Part shown: piece after piece, positions 2,488-24,887 of the stretch
Layout of the letters: every line of letters begins with the position of its first letter
How positions within the stretch are numbered: position 1 is the stretch's first letter
Assembly (NCBI GenBank): GCA_002773855.1
Contig: PEZY01000004.1
Location: 6,090 to 70,089 of the forward strand
DNA: 64,000 bases
From: Candidatus Buchananbacteria bacterium CG10_big_fil_rev_8_21_14_0_10_33_19
GTDB taxonomy: Bacteria > Patescibacteriota > Patescibacteriia > 2-01-FULL-39-33
Reading direction: 5' to 3'
Program-made: the position numbers and the translations under genes
The notes under the pieces: generated by a model
What the model saw: the letters and a program-made list of their open reading frames with translations, nothing else
Databases searched by the model: none
Told to the model about the DNA's origin: nothing

Positions 2488-3297
2488 TTATATTTCATAT
2501 TTGAAAATATTTGATTGAAACATTTTAACTGCTAATATCAAATATTCTTTGGCCATCTCCCAATTAATTGGTTCTAAGTAGCTACCACTTGGCCTTAATT
2601 TGCCTTGAGCATCAATACCAATCTTGGGCACAAAACACTTTATAAGTGGCTCAACTAAGTGCAAAGACTGCGGACCCAAACCACCAGCTACGATTAATTG
2701 TATATCAGGACATGAGTTATTTATAGCAGCCAAGTATGGTAATAATTTCAACCAAGACATTGGTAGGCCACGGCCCATGCTCATATCCAGTAGTACACCA
2801 TCAATTGTATCATCACCATAATCTTGAAGTTTGGTCACTAATTTAAGCGGATCGCAATCAACTAAGTTTAAGGCATGAGAATTAATTTGAATAATAACAT
2901 TAATATGCGGATAGAGTTTTTTAAATTCTCTAATATCATCTGAATTTGGCCAAATCATATCCAACTGAATGGCTCGTAAATTAGGACCAGAAAAATTAAC
3001 TACTTGAATTAGACTGTCTAGAATATCAATGCCTTGATAGTCAGCATAATGAAGAACGTTATAAGCCAAAGGATGTGTTGTAAAAATTTCAGCCACACTT
3101 TCTTTGGGTGGAAATACGCCATCAAAACGAGAGGCAAGGCCATGTAAAGTTTTATATGACATCATAACTCCCACACCCAATTGGTAAACTGGTCTATTAA
3201 CATCAATTATGTCTAAGGCTACTAACATATCATCAACCTGAGATCGATCAGTAAAATCAGTAATACCGATATAATTGGGAACTTTTAGCTTGGACAT
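2488..3297 (-). CDS. TIM-barrel protein of the phosphoribosylanthranilate-isomerase (TrpF) family. Function uncertain.
   Basis: 'NYIGITDFT' resembles the TrpF N-terminus 'KICGIT'. 'LRAIQLDM' and 'LIVAGGLGPQSL...IGIDAQGKL' resemble the TrpF 'LNAVQLHG' and 'LSGGLNPENV...VDVSSGVE' blocks. Confidence 0.4.
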   Translation of the reverse strand: MSKLKVPNYIGITDFTDRSQVDDMLVALDIIDVNRPVYQLGVGVMMSYKTLHGLASRFDGVFPPKESVAEIFTTHPLAYNVLHYADYQGIDILDSLIQVVNFSGPNLRAIQLDMIWPNSDDIREFKKLYPHINVIIQINSHALNLVDCDPLKLVTKLQDYGDDTIDGVLLDMSMGRGLPMSWLKLLPYLAAINNSCPDIQLIVAGGLGPQSLHLVEPLIKCFVPKIGIDAQGKLRPSGSYLEPINWEMAKEYLILAVKMFQSNIFKYEI

Positions 3298-3395
3298 CTT
3301 AATCCTTTCCGGTTGGTGGTAAAAAATATATTTATAAAATGAACAAGTTTAAACTATTTTTTATCACATTATAGACACTATGTCAATCGTCAACA

Positions 3396-3427
3396 AATAA
3401 AAAAGGCTACCGTTTTAAGGGTAGCCT
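3396..3427 (-). terminator. Rho-independent terminator closing the GC-rich island operon.
   Basis: GGCTACC-GTTTTAAG-GGTAGCC hairpin followed on the minus strand by a T-run. Confidence 0.55.
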
Positions 3428-3451
3428 TTGAGACCGTTGTGGTCTAAGGTA

Positions 3452-3883
3452 CTATTTTGGAGCTGTGGTTGACTCCGATTTTTCTGCACCACCTTGTCGC
3501 CGAAGTTTAGCGGCGGCAAGAGCGTCGTTGGTAGTACTTCGCCAGCTAAAACCGTTTGGCCCAACCGTCGAGATGTTACCATCTTTTCTGGTGGAGGCTT
3601 CTAACTGGAAGAACACCGATCCGTCACCACCGTGCTCCAGAATTTTCTGTAGTTGCCAGCCAGGTTGATCAGTCAAACCCTGACTAGCCGCTACATCCAA
3701 ACTGCTGGCCGGTGCACTGTAAACAGTAGCTGCCGCCTTAAGCTGATCAATTGTCGAGGTTTGATCGGCGATGGTTTTTTTCATCGCTTTGTGATTAGCC
3801 ACATAACCATGCAAAAACCAGCAAACACCAATCAGAGCTGCCACCGTGATCACTCCGCCAATAGCGCAAGCAATACATTTCAT
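3452..3883 (-). CDS. Island gene 4: small single-TM anchored protein (hypothetical).
   Basis: N-terminal TM helix 'IGGVITVAALIGVCWFL'. Ala/Gly/Ser-rich ectodomain. Sits in the GC-rich (~47-50%) block. Confidence 0.5.
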   Translation of the reverse strand: MKCIACAIGGVITVAALIGVCWFLHGYVANHKAMKKTIADQTSTIDQLKAAATVYSAPASSLDVAASQGLTDQPGWQLQKILEHGGDGSVFFQLEASTRKDGNISTVGPNGFSWRSTTNDALAAAKLRRQGGAEKSESTTAPK

Positions 3884-3895
3884 ACCAATCTCTCC

Positions 3896-5128
3896 TTAAA
3901 GTTTTTGAACTACCACAGTCAGTGGCAATCCATATTTTAGTTTCAATTCGATTTGGTGGCGTTCTATATTTTTACCACCAGTGTCAAAGTTGAGTATTGC
4001 ACACCAGCGACCATCATCGGTCTGACAAGGAATAAAACTAGGTATAGAACCACCGTTAATCCTCGCCTCTAACCTTTTGACATCATCTGGAGTCTGAAAT
4101 CGACCAAATTCGATTCGATCACCTAAATCAGAAGCAATACCTGTAGCCACCCAATCACCAGTTGTTACGGTAACTGAGTTGCTCCTTTTTTCCACTGGCT
4201 TTTTTTCAACCACCGCAGGTACTACTACTTCATTTGACGGTGCAGTCGTAATCGGCTGTTGAACCACTGGTGTAATTACTGGTGTAATTACAGACGCCGG
4301 AGTTGTAACCGTTACTGCTTTTTGAGCTGTTGACGATTTACTCATCCTGTCGACCCGCAACCAACCAATTTTTGTTTCATCATCGTAACTAGCGACTGGT
4401 TCATAAAAAACACCAGTTGCTTTATCGGTGAGTACTTCACCATCTACTAGATGAAACCATTTCGAGCCAACTTCAACTTCTTCACCACGCTTCACATCAT
4501 CTCCATCCCTAGAATAAAGGTAGGCATCAGCAGTGGCATAATAAGCCGCCGGCATTTCGGCCGAGTGCTCATTGATGACTGTGTCACGGTTAAGCGACAA
4601 GCCAACGCCCTTGATACGACTATCAATATTAGCCAGAATTTCTTCTCGCAACAATGACAGACGCATTGTATGTCGAGCTTGTGACCCAACATTAACATTC
4701 CAACATTGGAAAGTGAGAGCGACTAGCGACAAGCCGATCGCCCATTTAAACACCCAACGTTGGGGTTCTGGTGCTGTTACCACTAGATAGGTAGTACAAA
4801 ACACAATTACCAAGGAAAATATTTCCTTGGTCACCCCGCTTTGAATAGCAGCGGGATTTTTCAAGGCTACAAATATTCCGCCGGCTTGATAAAGATCATC
4901 GAAGCTCGCTCCGAAGATAATCGTCAAAACCGCCTGAACACCAACCGAAACCGCGAAACCAAGAAACAAGACTTGCGAAAAGCTCACGCTTTTACCAGCC
5001 AAGTTCTTGATCTCTTCACGATTGTAAACAGCCAAGATAATCAGCCCCGCCACCAAAGTAATCATTGGGGCGTATCTAAAAACAATGGACAACACAAATG
5101 CGAAAATAACAACTTTTTGCCAGTTCAT
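3896..5128 (-). CDS. Island gene 3: polytopic membrane protein (~5 TM) with a Pro/Thr/Val-rich linker and a C-terminal soluble domain (hypothetical).
   Basis: Hydrophobic N-terminal third. 'VITPVITPVVQQPITTAP' linker. No recognisable motif. Confidence 0.5.
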   Translation of the reverse strand: MNWQKVVIFAFVLSIVFRYAPMITLVAGLIILAVYNREEIKNLAGKSVSFSQVLFLGFAVSVGVQAVLTIIFGASFDDLYQAGGIFVALKNPAAIQSGVTKEIFSLVIVFCTTYLVVTAPEPQRWVFKWAIGLSLVALTFQCWNVNVGSQARHTMRLSLLREEILANIDSRIKGVGLSLNRDTVINEHSAEMPAAYYATADAYLYSRDGDDVKRGEEVEVGSKWFHLVDGEVLTDKATGVFYEPVASYDDETKIGWLRVDRMSKSSTAQKAVTVTTPASVITPVITPVVQQPITTAPSNEVVVPAVVEKKPVEKRSNSVTVTTGDWVATGIASDLGDRIEFGRFQTPDDVKRLEARINGGSIPSFIPCQTDDGRWCAILNFDTGGKNIERHQIELKLKYGLPLTVVVQKL

Positions 5129-5152
5129 ATCAACTCTCCTTAAAGGTTGTTG

Positions 5153-5956
5153 TCAGAATTTCTTCATTAAATTGGCAAACCACCGCAAGATATTTTCAAA
5201 TATCTCAAAGATTGATTCACCAATAAAATGGTCAGCAATTTGCTTGCCACGACTAAAGGCGCCATCTAAAGTGCCACTACTTGAATCAGTGCTAGCCGAG
5301 CCACTGGATTCTTTTCTTGGTTTTAACCAATCGGCAAATCCGAAAACCTTCTCGTGTATCTCGTCCCTCCGACCCCATAGCCAAACTGGTAGGGCGATTA
5401 CAGTTACCACTAGGGCAACCAAGATACGCCACCAACCTCGCTCATAGCGAGGTAGGAGTTTATCTTCTTTGATTCGAGAATCATTTTGCTGGATTGGCTC
5501 AACACCGATAATCCCCTTAGACAAATAATTAATCACCTGACCAACTGAAGAAACAGAATCATGTGTACTATCTGTCACTAAGGCTTTGATACCTTGCTCA
5601 ACCTGCTCCCAGTCAACTTGAGGAGTTGGCGGCCCGTAAGTAATGGCAGAGATAATCAGTACCAGTGCTAGCACCACCCAAGTATTACCCGGGATGTTGC
5701 TTTTACTAAGCACCCTCCAAAAGCCACCACCACGAATCCAATTGCCAATAGACACTCCTGTCCAATCTGAAACTGCTGGTACAAGAATGGCTGCCCAAAT
5801 AAGCAGTGCCACTCCCCACAACAATATCATTTCAAAGCCAAAGTTTACCCAGGGTGCTTCTCGCATACCCATGAGTGGATATTCCAAACACAAAGTAAAT
5901 GCAAAGGCAACCACTCCAACCAGGAAACAAATCACAGATTTAAGTAGAATATTCAT
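5153..5956 (-). CDS. Island gene 2: 4-TM membrane protein with a Ser-rich cytoplasmic tail (hypothetical).
   Basis: Four hydrophobic segments. ATGA start/stop overlap with the upstream gene suggests translational coupling. Confidence 0.5.
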   Translation of the reverse strand: MNILLKSVICFLVGVVAFAFTLCLEYPLMGMREAPWVNFGFEMILLWGVALLIWAAILVPAVSDWTGVSIGNWIRGGGFWRVLSKSNIPGNTWVVLALVLIISAITYGPPTPQVDWEQVEQGIKALVTDSTHDSVSSVGQVINYLSKGIIGVEPIQQNDSRIKEDKLLPRYERGWWRILVALVVTVIALPVWLWGRRDEIHEKVFGFADWLKPRKESSGSASTDSSSGTLDGAFSRGKQIADHFIGESIFEIFENILRWFANLMKKF

Positions 5957-6438
5957 CCTCCCAATCCTTCCAATCCTTTCAGTAAATTTTTCCAGAAGCC
6001 TTGGCCGGTGTCGGGTTTGACCGATTTAAAACCAGCTGGCTTTTCGGCGGGAATTTCCCGTTGACGAATATCTGCCGGACCACCAATTATGTGGAAGCTG
6101 GCTGTCCGCTTCTTGTCGGAAAATTCTAGCGGGATAACAGCCACGCCAGAAGATTTCCAATACTTATTACTGGTAGCCTCAACGATGGCTACTTTCTTAC
6201 TTAAGACATCAACAACAAAAGAAACGTTGGCTTGCACACCATTTTTATAGGTCTGCACCAGCATTTCCCAGCCACTAACGCCTCTGGTTAAATCATCGGT
6301 AATAGCATATTCTGGTCGACAGACCAGACATACTTCCCGATCTTTAGGCAGTGGCCGTGTGCCACATACTGGGCATTTGGGAAAATTTTGTTGTTTTCCC
6401 TTCTGTGGACCAGTTTGATTACCTTGGTTTTTACCCAT
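5953..6438 (-). CDS. Island gene 1: Zn-ribbon protein (CPVCG...CLVCRP) with a C-terminal beta-rich domain (hypothetical).
   Basis: CxxC-x13-CxxC near the N-terminus. First gene of a four-gene co-directional operon. Confidence 0.5.
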   Translation of the reverse strand: MGKNQGNQTGPQKGKQQNFPKCPVCGTRPLPKDREVCLVCRPEYAITDDLTRGVSGWEMLVQTYKNGVQANVSFVVDVLSKKVAIVEATSNKYWKSSGVAVIPLEFSDKKRTASFHIIGGPADIRQREIPAEKPAGFKSVKPDTGQGFWKNLLKGLEGLGG

Positions 6439-20793: not shown

Positions 20794-20819
20794 TAAAAAC
20801 CCAGTCATTTTACTGGGTT
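20794..20819 (-). terminator. Terminator after the clpP-like gene.
   Basis: AAACCCAGT-CATTTT-ACTGGGTTT with a T-run on the minus strand. Confidence 0.5.
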
Positions 20820-20827
20820 TAGAATAT

Positions 20828-21403
20828 TTAAACAATTTCATCAATTAAACCATAAGCCAGCGCCTCTTCTGCTGACAAATCTTGACCGGCTTTTGATATT
20901 TGTGAAATGGACTTTTTAGATTGACCAGAACATTTTACATAAATATTATTAATACGTTGTGAATCTTTTTTTACACCTTGTACTAATTGTTCCATAAACT
21001 TGGCGAAAGCTCTGGGGTTCAACACGTTTGATGCTTCTAATTTATTAACATCAACCAAAACATCATGAATCTTAAGATGAGCATGAAAATAAGCTAAGCG
21101 ATAATCGCAAGCCTGAAGGATAGCCATAGCCACCGATCGACAAAAAGTAGTAACCGTTCCTGTAACATGCCCGGGATAATTTTTGATTAAATCATAAATA
21201 CACAAGCCGACATCAACATTACCACCATTACTTGTAATCATAATTCTAATGTCTGGATTACCCTCGGTTTGTAAAATTATCATAGCTTCATGAACATATT
21301 TTGCCATTTCTTCATCTACAGGACCAGACAAATCTAAAATATGTCTAAAAAGAAGACTTTCTCTAATCGGATCGATACTATCGTATTTCCACATCAGATT
21401 CAC
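20828..21403 (-). CDS. ClpP-family (crotonase-fold) protease-like protein, divergent.
   Basis: 'ITSNGGNVDVGLCIYD' matches ClpP 'ITSPGGSVTAGLAIYD'. His ('LKIHDV') and Asp ('QDLSAEEALAYGLIDEIV') blocks are present. The catalytic Ser position is ambiguous. Confidence 0.55.
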   Translation of the reverse strand: MNLMWKYDSIDPIRESLLFRHILDLSGPVDEEMAKYVHEAMIILQTEGNPDIRIMITSNGGNVDVGLCIYDLIKNYPGHVTGTVTTFCRSVAMAILQACDYRLAYFHAHLKIHDVLVDVNKLEASNVLNPRAFAKFMEQLVQGVKKDSQRINNIYVKCSGQSKKSISQISKAGQDLSAEEALAYGLIDEIV

Positions 21404-21476: not shown

Positions 21477-23771
21477 TTATCTTTTAATCACTTCCAATAC
21501 TCCTCGAGAAAAATTACAGCCAACTATTCGACAATACTTACCACAGCCTCGGATACCCTTACGCTCTAATAGCGCGTTAACTTTCATAATTTTTTTTAGT
21601 TTTTCTTTTCTTAAATTGCCAATAAACCTTCGCTTAAAACACAGGGCTATATCACCAGTGGGATAGATTACCATATTCCGTTGACCAGCAAAACAACGAT
21701 ATCTTAATACTCTCTTAGGATCTAGATAATAATCTTCTATAGCTATTATATTAGCTAAAGAATTTTTTAATTTATTAGAATTATTTTTTAACCAATCAAA
21801 TAATTCTTTAGACTTTTCTATTCCTGGCCATAAATTTACCACCATTTCGTTATTAATCATATTTTTAGATTGATTAGATTCAATAATTTCATCTAATGGT
21901 TGAATAATTACGTCAACATTACCAAGATCATATAGATAATCAACCAAAGCTGGTATTTGTTTAACATTATATGAAGTAATTAAAACTCCCACCTCTAATT
22001 TAATACTACTTTTAACTACCAAATCTACGGTGCGCATCGCATTTTTAAAAGCAATCTCTGTGCCTCTGACAAAATTATGACTATCAGCCTCCAAACTATA
22101 TAAAGACACCTTTAATCTATCTAATTTTTGATTTTCTAATTCCTGAATAGTTTTTTCATTAATTAATGAACCATTGGTATTTAAAACAACCGTCTGAAAA
22201 TATTTTTTTAAATCACCAATCAATGAAAATACCAAATCTTTTTTAATTAAGGCCTCACCGCCACTTATTTCAACAAAACTTTTAGCTGGTAGGTAAGATT
22301 TTAATTGTTTGGCTACTCCTAACCACTCATCAATATTCATTTCACCATCAAAATTTGTTTTCTTCCAGATATCACAAGTCTTACATTTAAAATTACAACG
22401 AAAAGTAGTGACCAGACTAATATAATCTGGCTTATATAAATCACGCCCACTAAAATAACTAACCTCCAATAAAACTTTAGAAATTATTTTTTCTAAAAAA
22501 CCAACTTTAGAAAAATCTTTTAAACTGAGGCCAATAATTAACCAAAACAACATAACCCCAAAATAACTCGTCCACAAATAGTGATCAAAAAAACCAACAA
22601 TTAGCAGTGCCAACAAAGCCGAGACCGTAAACATATTACTAGCCTTATAGCCCGCCAACAATATCAATAGTATAAACAAGCCAAAACCAATAATTCCTAA
22701 TTCTGCTAAAATCATTAGATAAATATTATGAGCTGGTTGATAATGCCAACCAGGTGAACCCGGTCTAAAAGTCACTAAATAATTAGTGTAATTGCCCAAA
22801 CCCACACCTAATATTGGCTGAGTCAAAAAAACATCTTTAGCTTCAAACAAAGAATCTACTCTTTGTTCTATGGATTTTTCCTCTAGTCTTTCAGTATTTG
22901 ATAATCGTGTTAAAATTAACGGCTTATAAATAACAAGTAGTGGCACTAAAATTAATAACAAATAAGTAGAAATTTTAATTAAATCTAAAAATCTTTTTTT
23001 ATAAATTAATATCATCAAACAGGTGAAATAAGCAATTACTGCTGCTAGCCAAGCTGAGCGAGAAAAAGAAAAAAATAAACCCACAGTTATAAACACCAAA
23101 CTGATAGAAACCAATAACTTACGTTTATTTGTTGATTCATTTATATATAAATAAACCCCAGCCAAAAAACATATAACCAAGAAGCCACCAAAAATATTAG
23201 GGTGAGGTAAAGTACCATAGGCCCTTAGCCAACGCTGATCCAACGCCCCAACAACTGAAGAATTAATATCCAGCGGCAAATGACTAGCCACACCTAGCCA
23301 CTTGCTAGCCACTACCTGTTGAGATAAAAATTGCCACAACCCTAAAATTGATTGTAATAAACCAGCAAGTAAAAGTGACCGGAGAATAAATTTGATTTTA
23401 ATTTGAGAATTTAAAACTATAAACATTAAAACAATGCCTTCAATTAATTTTAACCACCAATAAATAGACAAATAATTATTAGTACTCCAAGCTACTGACA
23501 AAATCGAATAAAACATCACCAGGCCAATCACTATAAATACAAGTAATTTAAAGCGATCAAAAATTAATTCTTTTTTTTGTTTTAAAATATAATACATATA
23601 ATTAATAATAATCAACCAAAAAATAATTTCTATACTATAAATCAAGAAAGATCCTTCTTGCCATTTAAAGCCAAAAATAAATTGCTCTTTTAAAATCCAA
23701 ACTGTGGAAATTGGCAATAAAAATATAAACAAATAAATCAAAAATTCAATTATTTTATTTAATCTATTCAT
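21477..23771 (-). CDS. Fusion protein: N-terminal O-antigen-ligase/Wzy_C-like polytopic membrane domain plus C-terminal radical SAM domain with a SPASM-like Cys cluster.
   Basis: ~12 TM helices with the WaaL-family hallmark 'PAHNIYLMILAELG'. Then 'CNFKCKTCD' (CX3CX2C) and 'GGEAL'. C-terminal 'CFAG...C...CGKYC...GC'. Confidence 0.6.
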   Translation of the reverse strand: MNRLNKIIEFLIYLFIFLLPISTVWILKEQFIFGFKWQEGSFLIYSIEIIFWLIIINYMYYILKQKKELIFDRFKLLVFIVIGLVMFYSILSVAWSTNNYLSIYWWLKLIEGIVLMFIVLNSQIKIKFILRSLLLAGLLQSILGLWQFLSQQVVASKWLGVASHLPLDINSSVVGALDQRWLRAYGTLPHPNIFGGFLVICFLAGVYLYINESTNKRKLLVSISLVFITVGLFFSFSRSAWLAAVIAYFTCLMILIYKKRFLDLIKISTYLLLILVPLLVIYKPLILTRLSNTERLEEKSIEQRVDSLFEAKDVFLTQPILGVGLGNYTNYLVTFRPGSPGWHYQPAHNIYLMILAELGIIGFGLFILLILLAGYKASNMFTVSALLALLIVGFFDHYLWTSYFGVMLFWLIIGLSLKDFSKVGFLEKIISKVLLEVSYFSGRDLYKPDYISLVTTFRCNFKCKTCDIWKKTNFDGEMNIDEWLGVAKQLKSYLPAKSFVEISGGEALIKKDLVFSLIGDLKKYFQTVVLNTNGSLINEKTIQELENQKLDRLKVSLYSLEADSHNFVRGTEIAFKNAMRTVDLVVKSSIKLEVGVLITSYNVKQIPALVDYLYDLGNVDVIIQPLDEIIESNQSKNMINNEMVVNLWPGIEKSKELFDWLKNNSNKLKNSLANIIAIEDYYLDPKRVLRYRCFAGQRNMVIYPTGDIALCFKRRFIGNLRKEKLKKIMKVNALLERKGIRGCGKYCRIVGCNFSRGVLEVIKR

Positions 23772-24724
23772 TTTACTATCTCCTTTAATTTATTAATAAA
23801 CATATTTTGATACATTAATCTTCGATCATTCTCATGAAATTTTAACATAGTATCACTAATAATGACTCGACTATCATTTTCCTTGGCCAGACTCTTATTA
23901 TTTTTGGACATTTTTATAAACTGAATTGCTTTTAAAGTTTTTTCTAATTTATTACCAAACCAACCATCTAAAATATACTCTAAAAGTCTGACAGTAGTCT
24001 TAGATGATCTGGTTCCATCAACCCGGCGCCAATGACTACCATATTTTGATAAATAATTTGGCACATATTTTTTAATCCAACTATTTTTTTTCAAAAAAAT
24101 ATCATAACTACCACGATCATATATCGGGAATAAATTAACAATCCAATAAATTAAATATACGTCATTATCTATTATTTTTATTTTGGAAAAATCTAAATCA
24201 TCTTCTGAGGCGTAAAAACTAAGGCACAAGCGATTAGCTATTTTTTGATCATGACGCCTTAAACGCATCAAACTAATTAACACTGTGACCAAAAAACGAG
24301 CTATAAACAAACGATTTTTAGATGTGACAATAAATAAATCTATATCGCTATCATCTCTAATATTATTATTACCAGAATTATTACACAACCCCACCAATTT
24401 TATAAATGGTAAAAATTTTATCGCCTCAATACCTCTTTTGGCGATTTTGTTTTTATTACTAGCCAAGGCATATCGCCTAAGCCTAGTTAAAATAATATCA
24501 TCTCTACTGTTTAAAAAATAAAAACCTTTACTACATTTTAATCTATCATTCAAATAACGGCTGGTAATCAATATATCTTTAATATCTTTTAACTCAATTT
24601 GCTTCTCTGTATTTGTGTCAAGCCAAAGCCATTGCCAAATTTCCAACAACGTCAGCGGATAATCAAAGATATCAAAATAACAAATTGTCGATAAAATAGC
24701 GATTTCTAATTTTTTACTATCCAT
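23768..24724 (-). CDS. Hypothetical protein with a nucleotidyltransferase-fold-like motif, translationally coupled (ATGA) to the rSAM fusion gene.
   Basis: 'SGNNNIRDDSDIDLFIV' resembles the NTase [GS]-x9-DxD motif. 4-nt overlap with the downstream gene. Confidence 0.35.
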   Translation of the reverse strand: MDSKKLEIAILSTICYFDIFDYPLTLLEIWQWLWLDTNTEKQIELKDIKDILITSRYLNDRLKCSKGFYFLNSRDDIILTRLRRYALASNKNKIAKRGIEAIKFLPFIKLVGLCNNSGNNNIRDDSDIDLFIVTSKNRLFIARFLVTVLISLMRLRRHDQKIANRLCLSFYASEDDLDFSKIKIIDNDVYLIYWIVNLFPIYDRGSYDIFLKKNSWIKKYVPNYLSKYGSHWRRVDGTRSSKTTVRLLEYILDGWFGNKLEKTLKAIQFIKMSKNNKSLAKENDSRVIISDTMLKFHENDRRLMYQNMFINKLKEIVK

Positions 24725-24887
24725 ATTATAAAATTATTACCCTATAAACTTACCATAAAAACCATTTTTTATTAACTATATTTTTGGATTGACATTTAAG
24801 TCAATAGATCCTATAATCAAAACTGTTATTTAAATAAAAAATAACTCTAAATACATCAAATTTAAAACCAACAAAATAATTATTAAA

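What the first reader, a model, noticed from the sequence alone, without database searches (positions are those of the whole stretch)
21477..24724. Fusion of an O-antigen-ligase-like polytopic membrane domain to a radical-SAM/SPASM domain, translationally coupled to a nucleotidyltransferase-fold gene
The 764-aa protein combines two normally separate enzymes. Its N-terminal half is a ~12-TM WaaL/Wzy_C-type glycan ligase/polymerase domain with the hallmark 'H-N-x-Y-L...E-x-G' loop. Its C-terminal half is a radical SAM core (CX3CX2C, GGEAL) with an extra C-terminal Cys cluster resembling SPASM/twitch auxiliary Fe-S sites.

The upstream 318-aa gene overlaps it by ATGA and carries an NTase-like 'S-x9-DxD' motif.

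A membrane glycan-ligase fused to a radical SAM enzyme implies radical chemistry performed directly on a surface polymer, lipid-linked glycan or secreted peptide. I am not aware of a described activity for such a fusion.
Basis: partly seen in the sequence, partly recalled or inferred. Interest (0 to 1): 0.7.

Follow-up and report, generated by a model that had tools for sequence, protein, structure and literature searches.

The report
Glycan ligase fused to radical-SAM enzyme
A real but rare gene of uncultured Patescibacteria joins a membrane enzyme of the kind that attaches sugar chains on the cell surface to a radical-SAM enzyme that sits inside the cell; with the neighbouring nucleotidyltransferase-like gene it forms a three-part module whose chemistry is still unknown.

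Summary
ORF 21477-23771(-) encodes a 764-aa protein. Residues 1-417 are a 12-TM WaaL/Wzy_C domain; residues 418-764 are a radical-SAM domain with CX3CX2C, GGE and a truncated, 5-Cys SPASM/Twitch-like tail. The upstream 318-aa gene overlaps it by ATGA and has a winged-helix plus Pol-beta nucleotidyltransferase fold.

The fusion is not an assembly artefact: the identical protein is on at least 24 contigs, and 54-72 % identical orthologues keep the architecture.

It is rare. Only two full-length fusion clusters at 50 % identity (plus one truncated sequence) appear among the best 150 hits from 1.84 billion representatives.

It is one form of a wider module:
- NT-like followed by Wzy_C was found in 70 of the 80 examined loci, drawn from 535 species genomes that carry the NT-like gene.
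- The radical-SAM part also occurs as a separate adjacent gene, in both orders.
- In one locus it is fused to an NT-like domain instead.
- In syntenic loci the same C-terminal position holds a SAM methyltransferase, or nothing.

Topology puts the radical-SAM domain in the cytoplasm, opposite the ligase site. Radical chemistry on a finished surface polymer is therefore unlikely. I infer an optional cytoplasmic tailoring enzyme tethered to the ligase; the substrate is unknown. This is a new variant of known kinds, of moderate interest.

The parts
23768..24724 (-). 318-aa winged-helix + Pol-beta-fold nucleotidyltransferase-like protein (NCN07899.1), first gene of the unit
24500..24724 (-). N-terminal winged-helix domain of the NT-like protein (residues ~1-75)
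24110..24427 (-). NTase core of the NT-like protein (residues ~100-205)
   Evidence: This is the region aligned to KNTase, MNT and related structures. It also matches the NT-like domain of the L139 fusion, which passes Pfam NTP_transf_2.
24338..24349 (-). S126-D127-I128-D129, the metal-binding DxD of the NTase fold
   Evidence: D127 and D129 are invariant and S126 is present in 73 of 74 sequences.
23819..23845 (-). Conserved C-terminal motif L-K295-F-H297-E-N-D300-R-R302 of the NT-like family
   Evidence: K295, H297, D300 and R302 are invariant in 74 sequences. Its role is unknown.
23768..23771 (-). ATGA stop/start overlap between the NT-like gene and the fusion gene
   Evidence: Sequence. The same 4-bp overlap is seen in L001, L002, L004, L171 and L172.
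23780..23785 (-). AAGGAG Shine-Dalgarno, 8 nt before the fusion gene's ATG, inside the upstream gene
   Evidence: Sequence read directly.
21477..23771 (-). 764-aa Wzy_C / radical-SAM fusion protein (NCN07900.1)
   Evidence: AF2 model with pLDDT 95.9 and pTM 0.91.
22521..23771 (-). 12-TM WaaL/Wzy_C-type membrane domain (residues 1-417)
22713..22925 (-). Large extracytoplasmic loop (residues 283-353) carrying invariant R289, R304 and H348-N349
   Evidence: Topology. Invariance. R304 aligns with R265 and H348 with H313 of the solved WaaL 7TPG.
22428..22520 (-). Junction: end of TM12 plus helix 425-441, which is the conserved N-terminal helix of the stand-alone rSAM proteins
   Evidence: AF2 helix H425-441. 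Stand-alone homologues begin with the same K..E.SY.TG helix. No RRE-sized domain fits here.
21702..22427 (-). Radical-SAM core (residues 449-690)
22374..22397 (-). C459-x3-C463-x2-C466 radical-SAM cluster motif
   Evidence: Invariant in 7 fusions and in 48 family members.
22254..22262 (-). G504-G505-E506 SAM-binding motif
   Evidence: Invariant in the 7 fusions. G and E are invariant across the family.
21480..21701 (-). C-terminal auxiliary Fe-S domain (truncated SPASM / Twitch-like): C693-x12-G-x4-C711 ... C743-x3-C747-x4-C752
   Evidence: Pfam SPASM 27 bits, model positions 1-50 of 67. The five Cys are invariant in 48 family members. Four of them are invariant even in the distant fusion P0023.
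24775..24804 (-). Promoter-like site upstream of the NT-like gene (TTGACT-18-TATAGT)
   Evidence: Consensus scan, 10 of 12 matches. The overall number of such sites is not above shuffles, so this is weak evidence.
20797..20820 (-). Terminator-like hairpin after the ClpP-family gene; probable end of the transcription unit NT-like -> fusion -> ClpP-like
   Evidence: Consensus scan. The ClpP-family gene 20828-21403 is not a constant neighbour.

Best explanation
The gene encodes a genuine bifunctional membrane protein of an ABY1-type Patescibacterium (Ca. Falkowbacteria / Buchananbacteria).

Shown:
- Residues 1-417 are a WaaL/Wzy_C-type 12-TM glycan transferase. Its conserved Arg/Arg/His site lies in the extracytoplasmic loops.
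- TM12 leads straight into a cytoplasmic radical-SAM enzyme. It has a CX3CX2C cluster, a GGE SAM site and a truncated SPASM (Twitch-like) tail with five conserved Cys.
- The protein is the fused form of a three-part module: (1) a winged-helix/Pol-beta-fold nucleotidyltransferase-like protein, (2) the Wzy_C enzyme, (3) the radical-SAM enzyme.
- Parts 1 and 2 form the widely conserved core.
- Part 3 is an optional accessory. It can be absent, be a separate adjacent gene, be fused to part 2 (here) or to a short form of part 1, or be replaced at the same position by a class-I SAM methyltransferase.

Inferred mechanism:
- The Wzy_C domain transfers or polymerises a polyprenyl-diphosphate-linked glycan onto an acceptor at the outer face.
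- The tethered radical-SAM domain works at the inner face. It carries out a 5'-deoxyadenosyl-radical tailoring step (for example oxidation, decarboxylation, epimerisation or deoxygenation of a sugar) on the nucleotide- or lipid-linked precursor before it is flipped.
- The NT-like enzyme acts on the same cytoplasmic precursor, by nucleotidylation or activation.
- The fusion simply keeps tailoring and ligation together at the membrane.

The identities of the glycan, the acceptor and the radical reaction are not known.
For: Domain identity and integrity:
- Pfam hits above cut-off.
- High-confidence AF2 model, pLDDT 95.9 and pTM 0.91.
- The clade profile aligns R238, R304 and H348 with R191, R265 and H313 of the solved WaaL 7TPG. 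These residues are invariant or at least 90 % conserved in 40 clade members.
- All rSAM and auxiliary Cys are invariant in 48 family members.

Topology:
- 12 TM segments. Cytoplasmic loops are rich in K/R (2, 5, 3 and 3 in the four scored; two further short inner loops, read from the sequence, add about 2 and 1). The 347-aa tail follows TM12.

Real gene:
- At least 24 contigs carry the exact protein.
- Orthologues of 55-72 % identity are collinear.

Functional linkage of the three parts:
- The NT-like gene is immediately upstream in every fusion locus, including the 31 % identical P0023 locus.
- NT-like followed by Wzy_C on the same strand in 70 of 80 species loci, 48 of them directly adjacent.
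- L020/L106: NT-like, then Wzy_C (443 aa), then rSAM (342 aa, 47 % identical), as overlapping separate genes.
- L017: NT-like, then rSAM, then Wzy_C.
- L120: rSAM, then Wzy_C.
- L108, L118 and L130: NT-like, then rSAM.
- L139: one 552-aa rSAM plus NT-like fusion, which passes Pfam NTP_transf_2.
- A rough NJ tree places the window clade and the P0023 fusion in different branches, each beside unfused relatives. This suggests two independent fusions.

Accessory and exchangeable character:
- In the same syntenic slot (LysM-M23 peptidase divergent | NT-like -> Wzy_C -> ... groES groEL), L172 has a bare 433-aa Wzy_C that is 56-57 % identical.
- L171 has Wzy_C fused to a SAM methyltransferase.

Sugar-tailoring hint, weak:
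- The best structural match is BlsE, which acts on a nucleoside-linked hexuronic acid.
- Two stand-alone homologues sit inside glycan-assembly clusters with GT4, Wzz, Bac_transf, MurJ/Polysacc_synt and DedA genes.
Against: - No substrate is identified.
- Among 148 genes flanking stand-alone homologues no glycan-related family is enriched: Glycos_transf_1 occurs in only 4, and the contexts are mostly housekeeping genes.
- The window neighbourhood has no glycosyltransferase, flippase or sugar-nucleotide genes.
- No NCBIfam model reaches its cut-off.
- Whether the Wzy_C domain is a ligase, a polymerase or a protein O-glycosyltransferase cannot be told from sequence.
- The NT-like protein lacks the canonical G[GS], so its catalytic competence is not certain.
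- Adjacency of rSAM to NT-like or Wzy_C was seen in only about 7 of about 50 rSAM loci and about 5 of 80 NT-like loci.
Confidence: 0.5

Rival explanations
1. The radical-SAM domain modifies a protein or peptide rather than a sugar. One candidate is the cytoplasmic precursor of the protein (pilin, S-layer or other) that a PglL/PilO-like Wzy_C domain later O-glycosylates. Another is an anSME-like or sactisynthase-like reaction.
For: - The closest PDB sequences and many top fold matches are peptide or protein modifiers: SkfB (profile E 2e-21), PqqE, SuiB, ChlB and anSME.
- Wzy_C also covers protein O-oligosaccharyltransferases (established knowledge of the PglL/PilO family).
Against: - There is no RRE/PqqD-like recognition domain. 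Only about 30 residues lie between TM12 and the first rSAM strand, and stand-alone homologues start about 25 residues before CX3CX2C.
- There is no conserved small ORF in or beside the operon. The intergenic spaces are 74 and 163 bp, and none appears in the related loci.
- The position can be taken by a methyltransferase or left empty.
Confidence: 0.15
2. The radical-SAM domain acts on a lipid at the inner leaflet, either the polyprenyl carrier or a membrane or acceptor lipid, as GDGT-MAS/Tes-type enzymes act on lipid tails. The Wzy_C domain then handles the modified lipid-linked species.
For: - The domain is tethered directly to the membrane.
Against: - Most homologues are soluble stand-alone proteins of about 340 aa with no membrane anchor.
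- The GDGT-MAS match is no better than a dozen others.
- Nothing in the neighbourhood concerns lipids.
Confidence: 0.1
3. The NT-like and radical-SAM pair makes or alters a nucleotide (viperin-, MoaA- or BlsE-like chemistry on an NTP or a nucleoside-sugar). The Wzy_C link reflects use of that nucleotide-derived group as a surface decoration. Less likely, it reflects a defence or conflict role.
For: - pVip profile hits over the core: 51.8 bits for the window protein and 84 bits for L139.
- An rSAM fused to an NTase domain (L139).
- An AbiEii-type NTase directly upstream of another homologue (L103).
Against: - The pVip match covers only the generic core (model positions 5-152 of 257).
- Viperins have no auxiliary-cluster tail, whereas this family has five invariant extra Cys.
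- The MoaA models score 57-63 bits against cut-offs of 231-325.
- The locus is a stable housekeeping neighbourhood next to groES and groEL, not a defence island.
Confidence: 0.12
4. The fusion is an evolutionary accident of compact genomes, a read-through of two neighbouring genes, with no functional coupling between the domains.
For: - Only a few lineages have the fusion.
- A Wzy_C-deaminase fusion (P0064) may be such an accident.
- Neighbours of the stand-alone rSAM are mostly unrelated housekeeping genes.
Against: - There appear to be two separate fusion lineages.
- Adjacency recurs in several gene orders, and there is a second kind of fusion, rSAM with NT-like.
- The fusion is maintained with all motifs intact down to 31-34 % identity.
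Confidence: 0.1
5. The ORF is an assembly or frameshift artefact joining two genes.
For: None found.
Against: - The identical protein is on at least 24 contigs from many samples.
- Orthologues from NCBI, JGI, ENA and Logan assemblies are collinear, without gaps at the junction.
Confidence: 0.01

Closest known systems
WaaL O-antigen ligase (Cupriavidus metallidurans, PDB 7TPG/7TPJ) and the Wzy_C family (PF04932), which also includes Wzy polymerases and PglL/PilO protein O-oligosaccharyltransferases
   Same: - Pfam Wzy_C above cut-off.
- 12 TM helices, termini inside, and a large outer loop before TM10.
- The Arg, Arg and His that align with R191, R265 and H313 of 7TPG are conserved. That these are the catalytic and diphosphate-binding residues rests on my recollection of the WaaL literature; it was not checked with a tool.
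   Different: - About 14-16 % sequence identity.
- The host is a Patescibacterium, which by general knowledge has no outer membrane or lipid A, so the acceptor cannot be lipid A-core.
- It carries a 347-aa cytoplasmic enzyme domain that no characterised member has.
- It is always preceded by an NT-like gene.
Twitch/SPASM radical-SAM enzymes: BlsE (7VOB), SkfB (6EFN), anSME (4K36), BtrN (4M7S), MoaA (1TV7), PqqE (6C8V)
   Same: - CX3CX2C, GGE and a partial TIM barrel.
- A C-terminal Cys-rich extension beginning with the SPASM signature CX12GX4C.
- Profile E-values from 2e-21 to 1e-10.
   Different: - At most 20 % identity.
- Only 5 of the 7 SPASM Cys are present, and the second half is CX3CX4C instead of CX2CX5CX3C.
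- No RRE domain.
- No NCBIfam equivalog reaches its cut-off.
- Here it is covalently anchored to a polytopic membrane protein.
Pol-beta-superfamily nucleotidyltransferases: kanamycin NTase ANT(4'), AAD(9), LinB, DrrA and GlnE AMP-transferases, and MNT (for the 318-aa neighbour)
   Same: - Invariant S-D-x-D.
- A helical C-terminal domain, as in ANT enzymes.
   Different: - No significant sequence similarity: PDB profile E 0.2; Pfam below cut-off.
- G[GS] is replaced by C-N-[NST].
- It has an extra N-terminal winged helix.
- It has its own invariant K-F-H-E-N-D-R-R motif.
- It is constantly paired with a Wzy_C gene, or once with a PMT/GT-C gene.
Wzy_C fused to a class-I SAM methyltransferase in sister Patescibacteria (P0009, P0010, P0012, P0025; locus L171)
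   Same: - Orthologous Wzy_C, 40-49 % identical by BLASTP.
- The same upstream NT-like gene with a 4-bp overlap.
- The same synteny with the LysM-M23 peptidase and groES/groEL.
- A SAM-using cytoplasmic domain at the same C-terminal position.
   Different: The appended enzyme is a methyltransferase, not a radical-SAM enzyme. It is equally uncharacterised.
MprF-type bifunctional membrane proteins (mechanistic analogy only)
   Same: One polypeptide combines a cytoplasm-facing modifying enzyme with a membrane domain that handles the modified lipid-linked product at the other leaflet. The MprF description is taken from the abstract of PMC11980842, as listed.
   Different: There is no homology. The chemistry is different (aminoacylation of phosphatidylglycerol), and the MprF membrane domain is a flippase, not a transferase.

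Membership tests
Wzy_C / WaaL-type membrane glycan transferases (PF04932) | Profile match above the curated threshold | tested here: met
   73.9 bits against a cut-off of 31.7, residues 224-367.
Wzy_C / WaaL-type membrane glycan transferases (PF04932) | Polytopic (about 12 TM) topology with both termini cytoplasmic and a large extracytoplasmic loop carrying the conserved His | tested here: met
   Hydropathy and the positive-inside rule. AF2 helices. This is a prediction only; there is no experimental topology.
Wzy_C / WaaL-type membrane glycan transferases (PF04932) | Fold similarity to a solved WaaL | tested here: met
   [not shown]
Wzy_C / WaaL-type membrane glycan transferases (PF04932) | Conserved Arg/Arg/His of the active site | tested here: met
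   R238, R304 and H348 align with R191, R265 and H313 of 7TPG. They are at least 90 % conserved or invariant in 40 clade members. The functional role of these residues in WaaL is recalled from the literature, not verified here.
Wzy_C / WaaL-type membrane glycan transferases (PF04932) | Specific activity (ligase, polymerase or protein O-OTase), donor and acceptor | not testable with these tools
   NCBIfam subfamily models are all far below cut-off: PEP_O_lig_1 50 bits against 188, IctB 45 against 366.
Radical SAM superfamily (PF04055) | CX3CX2C cluster motif, GGE SAM motif and a profile match above threshold | tested here: met
   C459, C463, C466 and G504-G-E506 are invariant. Pfam 60.2 bits against 29.5.
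Radical SAM superfamily (PF04055) | Partial TIM-barrel fold | tested here: met
   [not shown]
Radical SAM superfamily (PF04055) | Reductive cleavage of SAM | not testable with these tools
   Needs anaerobic biochemistry.
SPASM subfamily (PF13186; seven-Cys, two auxiliary clusters) | Full motif CX9-15GX4C ... CX2CX5CX3C ... C | tested here: not met
   The first half is present (C693-x12-G-x4-C711). The second half is C743-x3-C747-x4-C752. Only five Cys are conserved. The Pfam SPASM match is above cut-off but covers model positions 1-50 of 67.
Twitch-type radical-SAM enzymes (one auxiliary cluster; BtrN, MoaA, SkfB, BlsE-like) | Shortened C-terminal domain with enough Cys for one auxiliary [4Fe-4S] | tested here: inconclusive
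   [not shown]
RiPP-maturase radical-SAM enzymes | RRE (PqqD-like) recognition domain and an adjacent precursor-peptide gene | tested here: not met
   No space for an RRE between TM12 (ends about residue 417) and strand 450-454. Stand-alone homologues also lack it. No conserved small ORF.
Prokaryotic viperins (pVip) | Full-length match including the C-terminal nucleotide-binding extension; no auxiliary cluster | tested here: not met
   The PADLOC pVip profile is matched only over positions 5-152 of 257. The family has a five-Cys tail.
Pol-beta superfamily nucleotidyltransferases (the 318-aa neighbour) | NTase fold | tested here: met
   [not shown]
Pol-beta superfamily nucleotidyltransferases (the 318-aa neighbour) | Signature hG[GS]x9-13Dh[DE]h plus a profile match above threshold | tested here: inconclusive
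   D127 and D129 are invariant, but G[GS] is replaced by C-N-[NST]. Pfam Polbeta scores 14.4 bits against 26.9. A short paralogous domain fused to the rSAM in L139 has G-S and passes NTP_transf_2 with 23.2 bits against 21.

The most novel reading that the evidence does not exclude
NT-like, Wzy_C and radical-SAM together form a Patescibacteria-specific envelope pathway. In it, a nucleotidyltransferase and a membrane-tethered Twitch-type radical-SAM enzyme create a sugar or lipid-linked modification of a kind not yet described. A WaaL-like enzyme then installs this modification on the cell surface of these episymbionts. Swapping the C-terminal domain (radical SAM, methyltransferase or none) would then be a way to vary the surface between close lineages.
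Probability: 0.3. Interest if true: 0.7.

Novelty: new variant of a known kind. Interest (0 to 1): 0.52.

Why it matters
Patescibacteria (CPR) are abundant, mostly uncultured episymbionts, and almost nothing is known about how they build their surface.

The work shows that a winged-helix/NTase-like protein and a WaaL-like membrane enzyme form a translationally coupled pair. The NT-like gene is present in at least 535 species genomes and is followed by a Wzy_C gene in 70 of the 80 loci examined, usually just upstream of groES-groEL. A radical-SAM enzyme has been recruited to this pair repeatedly, by adjacency and by two kinds of fusion.

If the inference is right, the fusion marks a radical tailoring step in surface-glycoconjugate assembly. 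It also offers a defined three-protein system for biochemistry. The soluble rSAM domain and the NT-like protein are small and have confident models.

If the inference is wrong, the finding is still a clean example of a 'Rosetta-stone' fusion that links three uncharacterised families.

Tried and rejected
- Sequence search of the NT-like protein against the PDB: no hit for the single sequence. The profile gave only MNT at E 0.2. The fold search was needed.
- The NCBIfam TenpIN hit for the NT-like protein (18 bits against 90) is spurious.
- NCBIfam for the rSAM domain: 63 families match the generic core, and none comes near its cut-off. No equivalog can be assigned.
- Neighbourhood enrichment for stand-alone rSAM homologues: 148 flanking genes gave no dominant family. 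The glycan-cluster context seen at first does not generalise, so I treat it as weak evidence.
- Genes downstream of Wzy_C in 60 loci are GroES, ClpP-like, M16 peptidase, RF-1, prephenate dehydratase and others. There is no further conserved partner.
- The sulfatase-family gene near L002 was considered as a possible anSME-type target. I dropped it because it is absent from the window and from the other loci.
- The defence-system reading was tested with PADLOC. Only a generic pVip core match was found.
- Literature: six full-text searches were run. Five targeted this architecture or its Patescibacteria context and found nothing relevant; the sixth looked for WaaL structure papers. The one paper that mentions both Patescibacteria and O-antigen ligase is unrelated.
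- The afdb50 fold library was not available. A structural survey for other Wzy_C-rSAM fusions could not be done.
- The Wzy_C-deaminase fusion (P0064) could be a chance fusion with a TadA-like gene.

Full report
**1. The observation**

The window has two overlapping minus-strand ORFs, 23768-24724 (318 aa) and 21477-23771 (764 aa). The junction reads AAGGAG, then 8 nt, then ATGA. The upstream stop therefore overlaps the downstream start, and a Shine-Dalgarno sequence lies inside the upstream gene.

Pfam finds three domains in the 764-aa protein, all above the curated cut-offs:
- Wzy_C, residues 224-367, 73.9 bits.
- Radical_SAM, residues 454-612, 60.2 bits.
- SPASM, residues 693-736, 27 bits, covering only model positions 1-50 of 67.

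- H348-N-x-Y-L ... E357-x-G.
- C459-x3-C-x2-C466.
- S-G-G-E-A-L, residues 503-508.
- A C-terminal Cys group.

A hydropathy and positive-inside analysis gives 12 TM segments with the N-terminus inside. The 347-residue tail that follows TM12 is also inside.

**2. The gene is real**

- The exact protein is called on at least 24 contigs; the index lists it in 35 blocks.
- It is deposited as NCN07900.1, PIS06417.1 and UniRef100_A0A2H0W564, under the name 'radical SAM protein' from Ca. Falkowbacteria / Buchananbacteria.
- Independent assemblies from Logan, NCBI and JGI hold orthologues of 72, 69, 65, 64 and 55 % identity. All have the same uninterrupted architecture and no gaps at the junction.
- A 779-aa protein of only 31-34 % identity (P0023) has the same architecture.

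**3. Structure and family membership**

*The fusion protein.* An AlphaFold model built on 96 sequences is confident throughout, with pLDDT 95.9 and pTM 0.91.

The N-terminal half:
- A profile of 40 clade members hits 7TPG at E 4.5e-4. It aligns R238, R304 and H348 with R191, R265 and H313 of that structure.
- These three residues are invariant or at least 90 % conserved in the clade.
- By the predicted topology they lie on the outer face.
- That they are the catalytic and diphosphate-binding residues of WaaL is my recollection of the literature.

The C-terminal half:
- In 48 family members the three radical-SAM Cys and five further Cys are invariant: C693-x12-G-x4-C711 ... C743-x3-C747-x4-C752.
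- This is the first half of the SPASM signature followed by a divergent, shorter second half. Five Cys are enough for one fully ligated auxiliary cluster, not two (inference).
- No NCBIfam equivalog comes near its cut-off.
- There is no room for an RRE domain between TM12 and the first strand of the barrel.

*The 318-aa protein.* It has no significant sequence match in Pfam or the PDB. Its model has pLDDT 94.3 and consists of three parts:
- An N-terminal winged helix.
- A helical C-terminal region.

In 74 homologues D127 and D129 are invariant and S126 nearly so. The canonical G[GS] is replaced by C-N-[N/S/T]. A separate motif, K295-F-H-E-N-D-R-R302, is invariant.

**4. Distribution and context**

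*Rarity of the fusion.*
- The word-indexed search of 5.8 billion clusters found about eight full-length or partial fusions.
- The exhaustive HMMER scan of 1.84 billion representatives listed only three fusion clusters in its best 150: P0004 (65 %), P0023 (34 %) and P0007 (55 %), a 506-aa truncated sequence.
- Two more loci turned up in the contig scans (L010 and L090).

*The Wzy_C part alone.* It is common in Patescibacteria as a protein of about 440 aa.

*The NT-like family.*
- It has more than 700 members.
- It is encoded in 535 of the GTDB species genomes. All the named ones are Patescibacteria of the Falkow-, Buchanan-, Magasanik-, Kerfeld- and Uhrbacteria type.
- In 70 of the 80 loci examined a Wzy_C homologue follows on the same strand. 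In 48 of these it is directly adjacent, often with a 4-bp overlap.
- In 54 of 80 loci groES follows within 5 kb.
- The conserved core is therefore NT-like followed by Wzy_C.

*The radical-SAM part.* It has about 90 stand-alone homologues of about 340 aa and 45-55 % identity. It is linked to the core in several ways:

| Locus | Arrangement |
|---|---|
| L020 / L106 | NT-like, then Wzy_C (443 aa), then rSAM (342 aa), as overlapping genes |
| L017 | NT-like, then rSAM, then Wzy_C |
| L120 | rSAM, then Wzy_C |
| L108, L118, L130 | short NT-like paralogue(s), then rSAM |
| L139 | one 552-aa protein with rSAM (residues 8-333) fused to an NT-like domain (362-530) that passes Pfam NTP_transf_2 |
| L103 | an AbiEii-type NTase directly upstream of the rSAM |

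A rough NJ tree puts the window clade among stand-alone sequences. It puts the P0023 fusion next to the unfused L017 gene, which suggests two independent fusions (no support values).

Most stand-alone copies, however, lie among unrelated housekeeping genes. No family is enriched among 148 flanking genes. Only two loci are glycan-assembly clusters.

*Exchange at one syntenic slot.* The slot is: LysM-M23 peptidase transcribed divergently, then NT-like, then Wzy_C, then (ClpP-like), then groES and groEL. Close relatives differ at the C-terminus of Wzy_C:
- Bare Wzy_C of 433 aa, 56-57 % identical (L172).
- Wzy_C with the rSAM domain (the window, L001-L004).
- Wzy_C with a class-I SAM methyltransferase (L171).

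The C-terminal domain is therefore dispensable and exchangeable.

**5. The most likely mechanism**

Shown:
- A WaaL-type site on the outer face.
- A complete radical-SAM enzyme on the inner face of the same polypeptide.
- Genetic linkage among NT-like, Wzy_C and rSAM.

Inferred:
- The Wzy_C domain transfers or polymerises a polyprenyl-PP-linked glycan outside the membrane.
- The tethered radical-SAM domain tailors the precursor, nucleotide- or lipid-linked, at the inner face before flipping.
- In sister lineages a methyltransferase does the tailoring instead, or nothing does.
- The NT-like enzyme acts on the same cytoplasmic precursor.
- Both SAM and a low-potential reductant are cytoplasmic (established knowledge of radical-SAM enzymes), which fits the topology.

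The substrate class is not fixed by the data. The best structural neighbour, BlsE, acts on a nucleoside-linked uronic acid, but peptide-modifying enzymes score almost as well.

**6. Rivals**

- Protein or peptide modification. Against it: no RRE and no precursor ORF.
- Lipid modification. The only support is membrane tethering and a generic GDGT-MAS match.
- Nucleotide chemistry together with the NTase. Support: viperin, MoaA and BlsE matches and the rSAM-NTase fusion. Against it: the pVip profile is matched over the generic core only, and the family has an auxiliary-cluster tail.
- Accidental fusion. Against it: recurrence in different arrangements.
- Assembly artefact. Refuted.

**7. Comparison with what is known, and novelty**

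- Both domains are clear members of their superfamilies (Wzy_C and radical SAM).
- The tail is not a full SPASM domain.
- The protein is not a RiPP maturase, a viperin or a MoaA by the tests above.
- The proteins are already in public databases with automatic names.
- Five full-text searches for this architecture or its Patescibacteria context found no paper that describes the fusion, the NT-like/Wzy_C pair or the rSAM clade.
- I rate it a new variant of known kinds: a rare domain fusion that exposes an uncharacterised, lineage-specific three-component module.
- Interest is moderate. The architecture is unusual and the core pair is very widespread in one CPR class. Against that, the function is inferred only, and the fusion itself is confined to a few lineages.

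Noticed in passing
L139:7980-9638 (+): A single 552-aa protein fuses the same radical-SAM/SPASM-like family (residues 8-333) to a short NT-like domain (362-530) that lacks the winged helix and passes Pfam NTP_transf_2. This is a second, different Rosetta-stone fusion within the module.
   Followed up: partly
L171:4081-7061 (+); also P0009, P0010, P0012: In the same syntenic slot (LysM-M23 peptidase | NT-like -> Wzy_C -> groES groEL) the Wzy_C protein carries a C-terminal class-I SAM methyltransferase instead of the radical-SAM domain. L172 has no C-terminal domain at all.
   Followed up: partly
L078:4961-7530 (+): Here the NT-like gene is followed, with a 4-bp overlap, by a 541-aa PMT/PMT_2-family (GT-C) membrane glycosyltransferase instead of a Wzy_C protein. 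This hints that the NT-like protein partners with membrane enzymes that use lipid-linked sugars more generally. It is a single case.
   Followed up: no
L026:6900-7571, L029:4253-4888, L030:6921-7559, L040:6953-7588, L043:6933-7568, L050:3011-3622, L083:4276-4914: An ORF of about 211 aa is inserted between the NT-like and Wzy_C genes in about seven species. Two of the three such ORFs scanned (L029 and L026; L030 gave no hit) show a weak, sub-threshold match to the predicted membrane protein family DUF2238.
   Followed up: no
L010-L089 (80 genome loci): The NT-like -> Wzy_C pair lies just upstream of groES-groEL in most genomes: a GroES homologue is on the same strand within 5 kb in 54 of 80 loci. 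In three loci (L038, L076, L086) groES follows the NT-like gene directly, with no Wzy_C between.
   Followed up: partly
window 2488-6438 (-): Five consecutive ORFs (269, 143, 410, 267 and 161 aa) have no Pfam match. The 410- and 267-aa products are hydrophobic membrane proteins. G+C at 4001-6000 is 0.44, against 0.29-0.37 in the rest of the window. There is no Rfam hit. This may be a foreign or lineage-specific island.
   Followed up: no
window 20828-21403 (-): A 191-aa ClpP-family gene with a GTG start sits between the fusion gene and groES, followed by the only good terminator-like hairpin (20797-20820). It is present in the closest relatives but replaced by an FAD-oxidoreductase gene in L004 and absent in L005 and L171. 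Whether its catalytic triad is intact was not checked.
   Followed up: no
L010, L014, L022, L027, L040 and others (genome contigs record titles): Many records titled 'MAG TPA_asm: uncultured Gammaproteobacteria bacterium' carry typical Patescibacteria NT-like/Wzy_C/groESL loci. The organism names in these records look wrong.
   Followed up: no
P0064 (ENA ERZ1426824 contig, gene 4281-6203): A 640-aa Wzy_C protein has a C-terminal cytidine/deoxycytidylate-deaminase (TadA-like) domain and is preceded by an overlapping 310-aa gene. It could be a third kind of appended enzyme or a chance fusion.
   Followed up: no
L006:1-338 (-): A 742-aa Wzy_C-family protein, running off the locus, lies about 7 kb from a stand-alone rSAM homologue on an 802-kb contig. 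Its extra approximately 300 residues were not examined.
   Followed up: no
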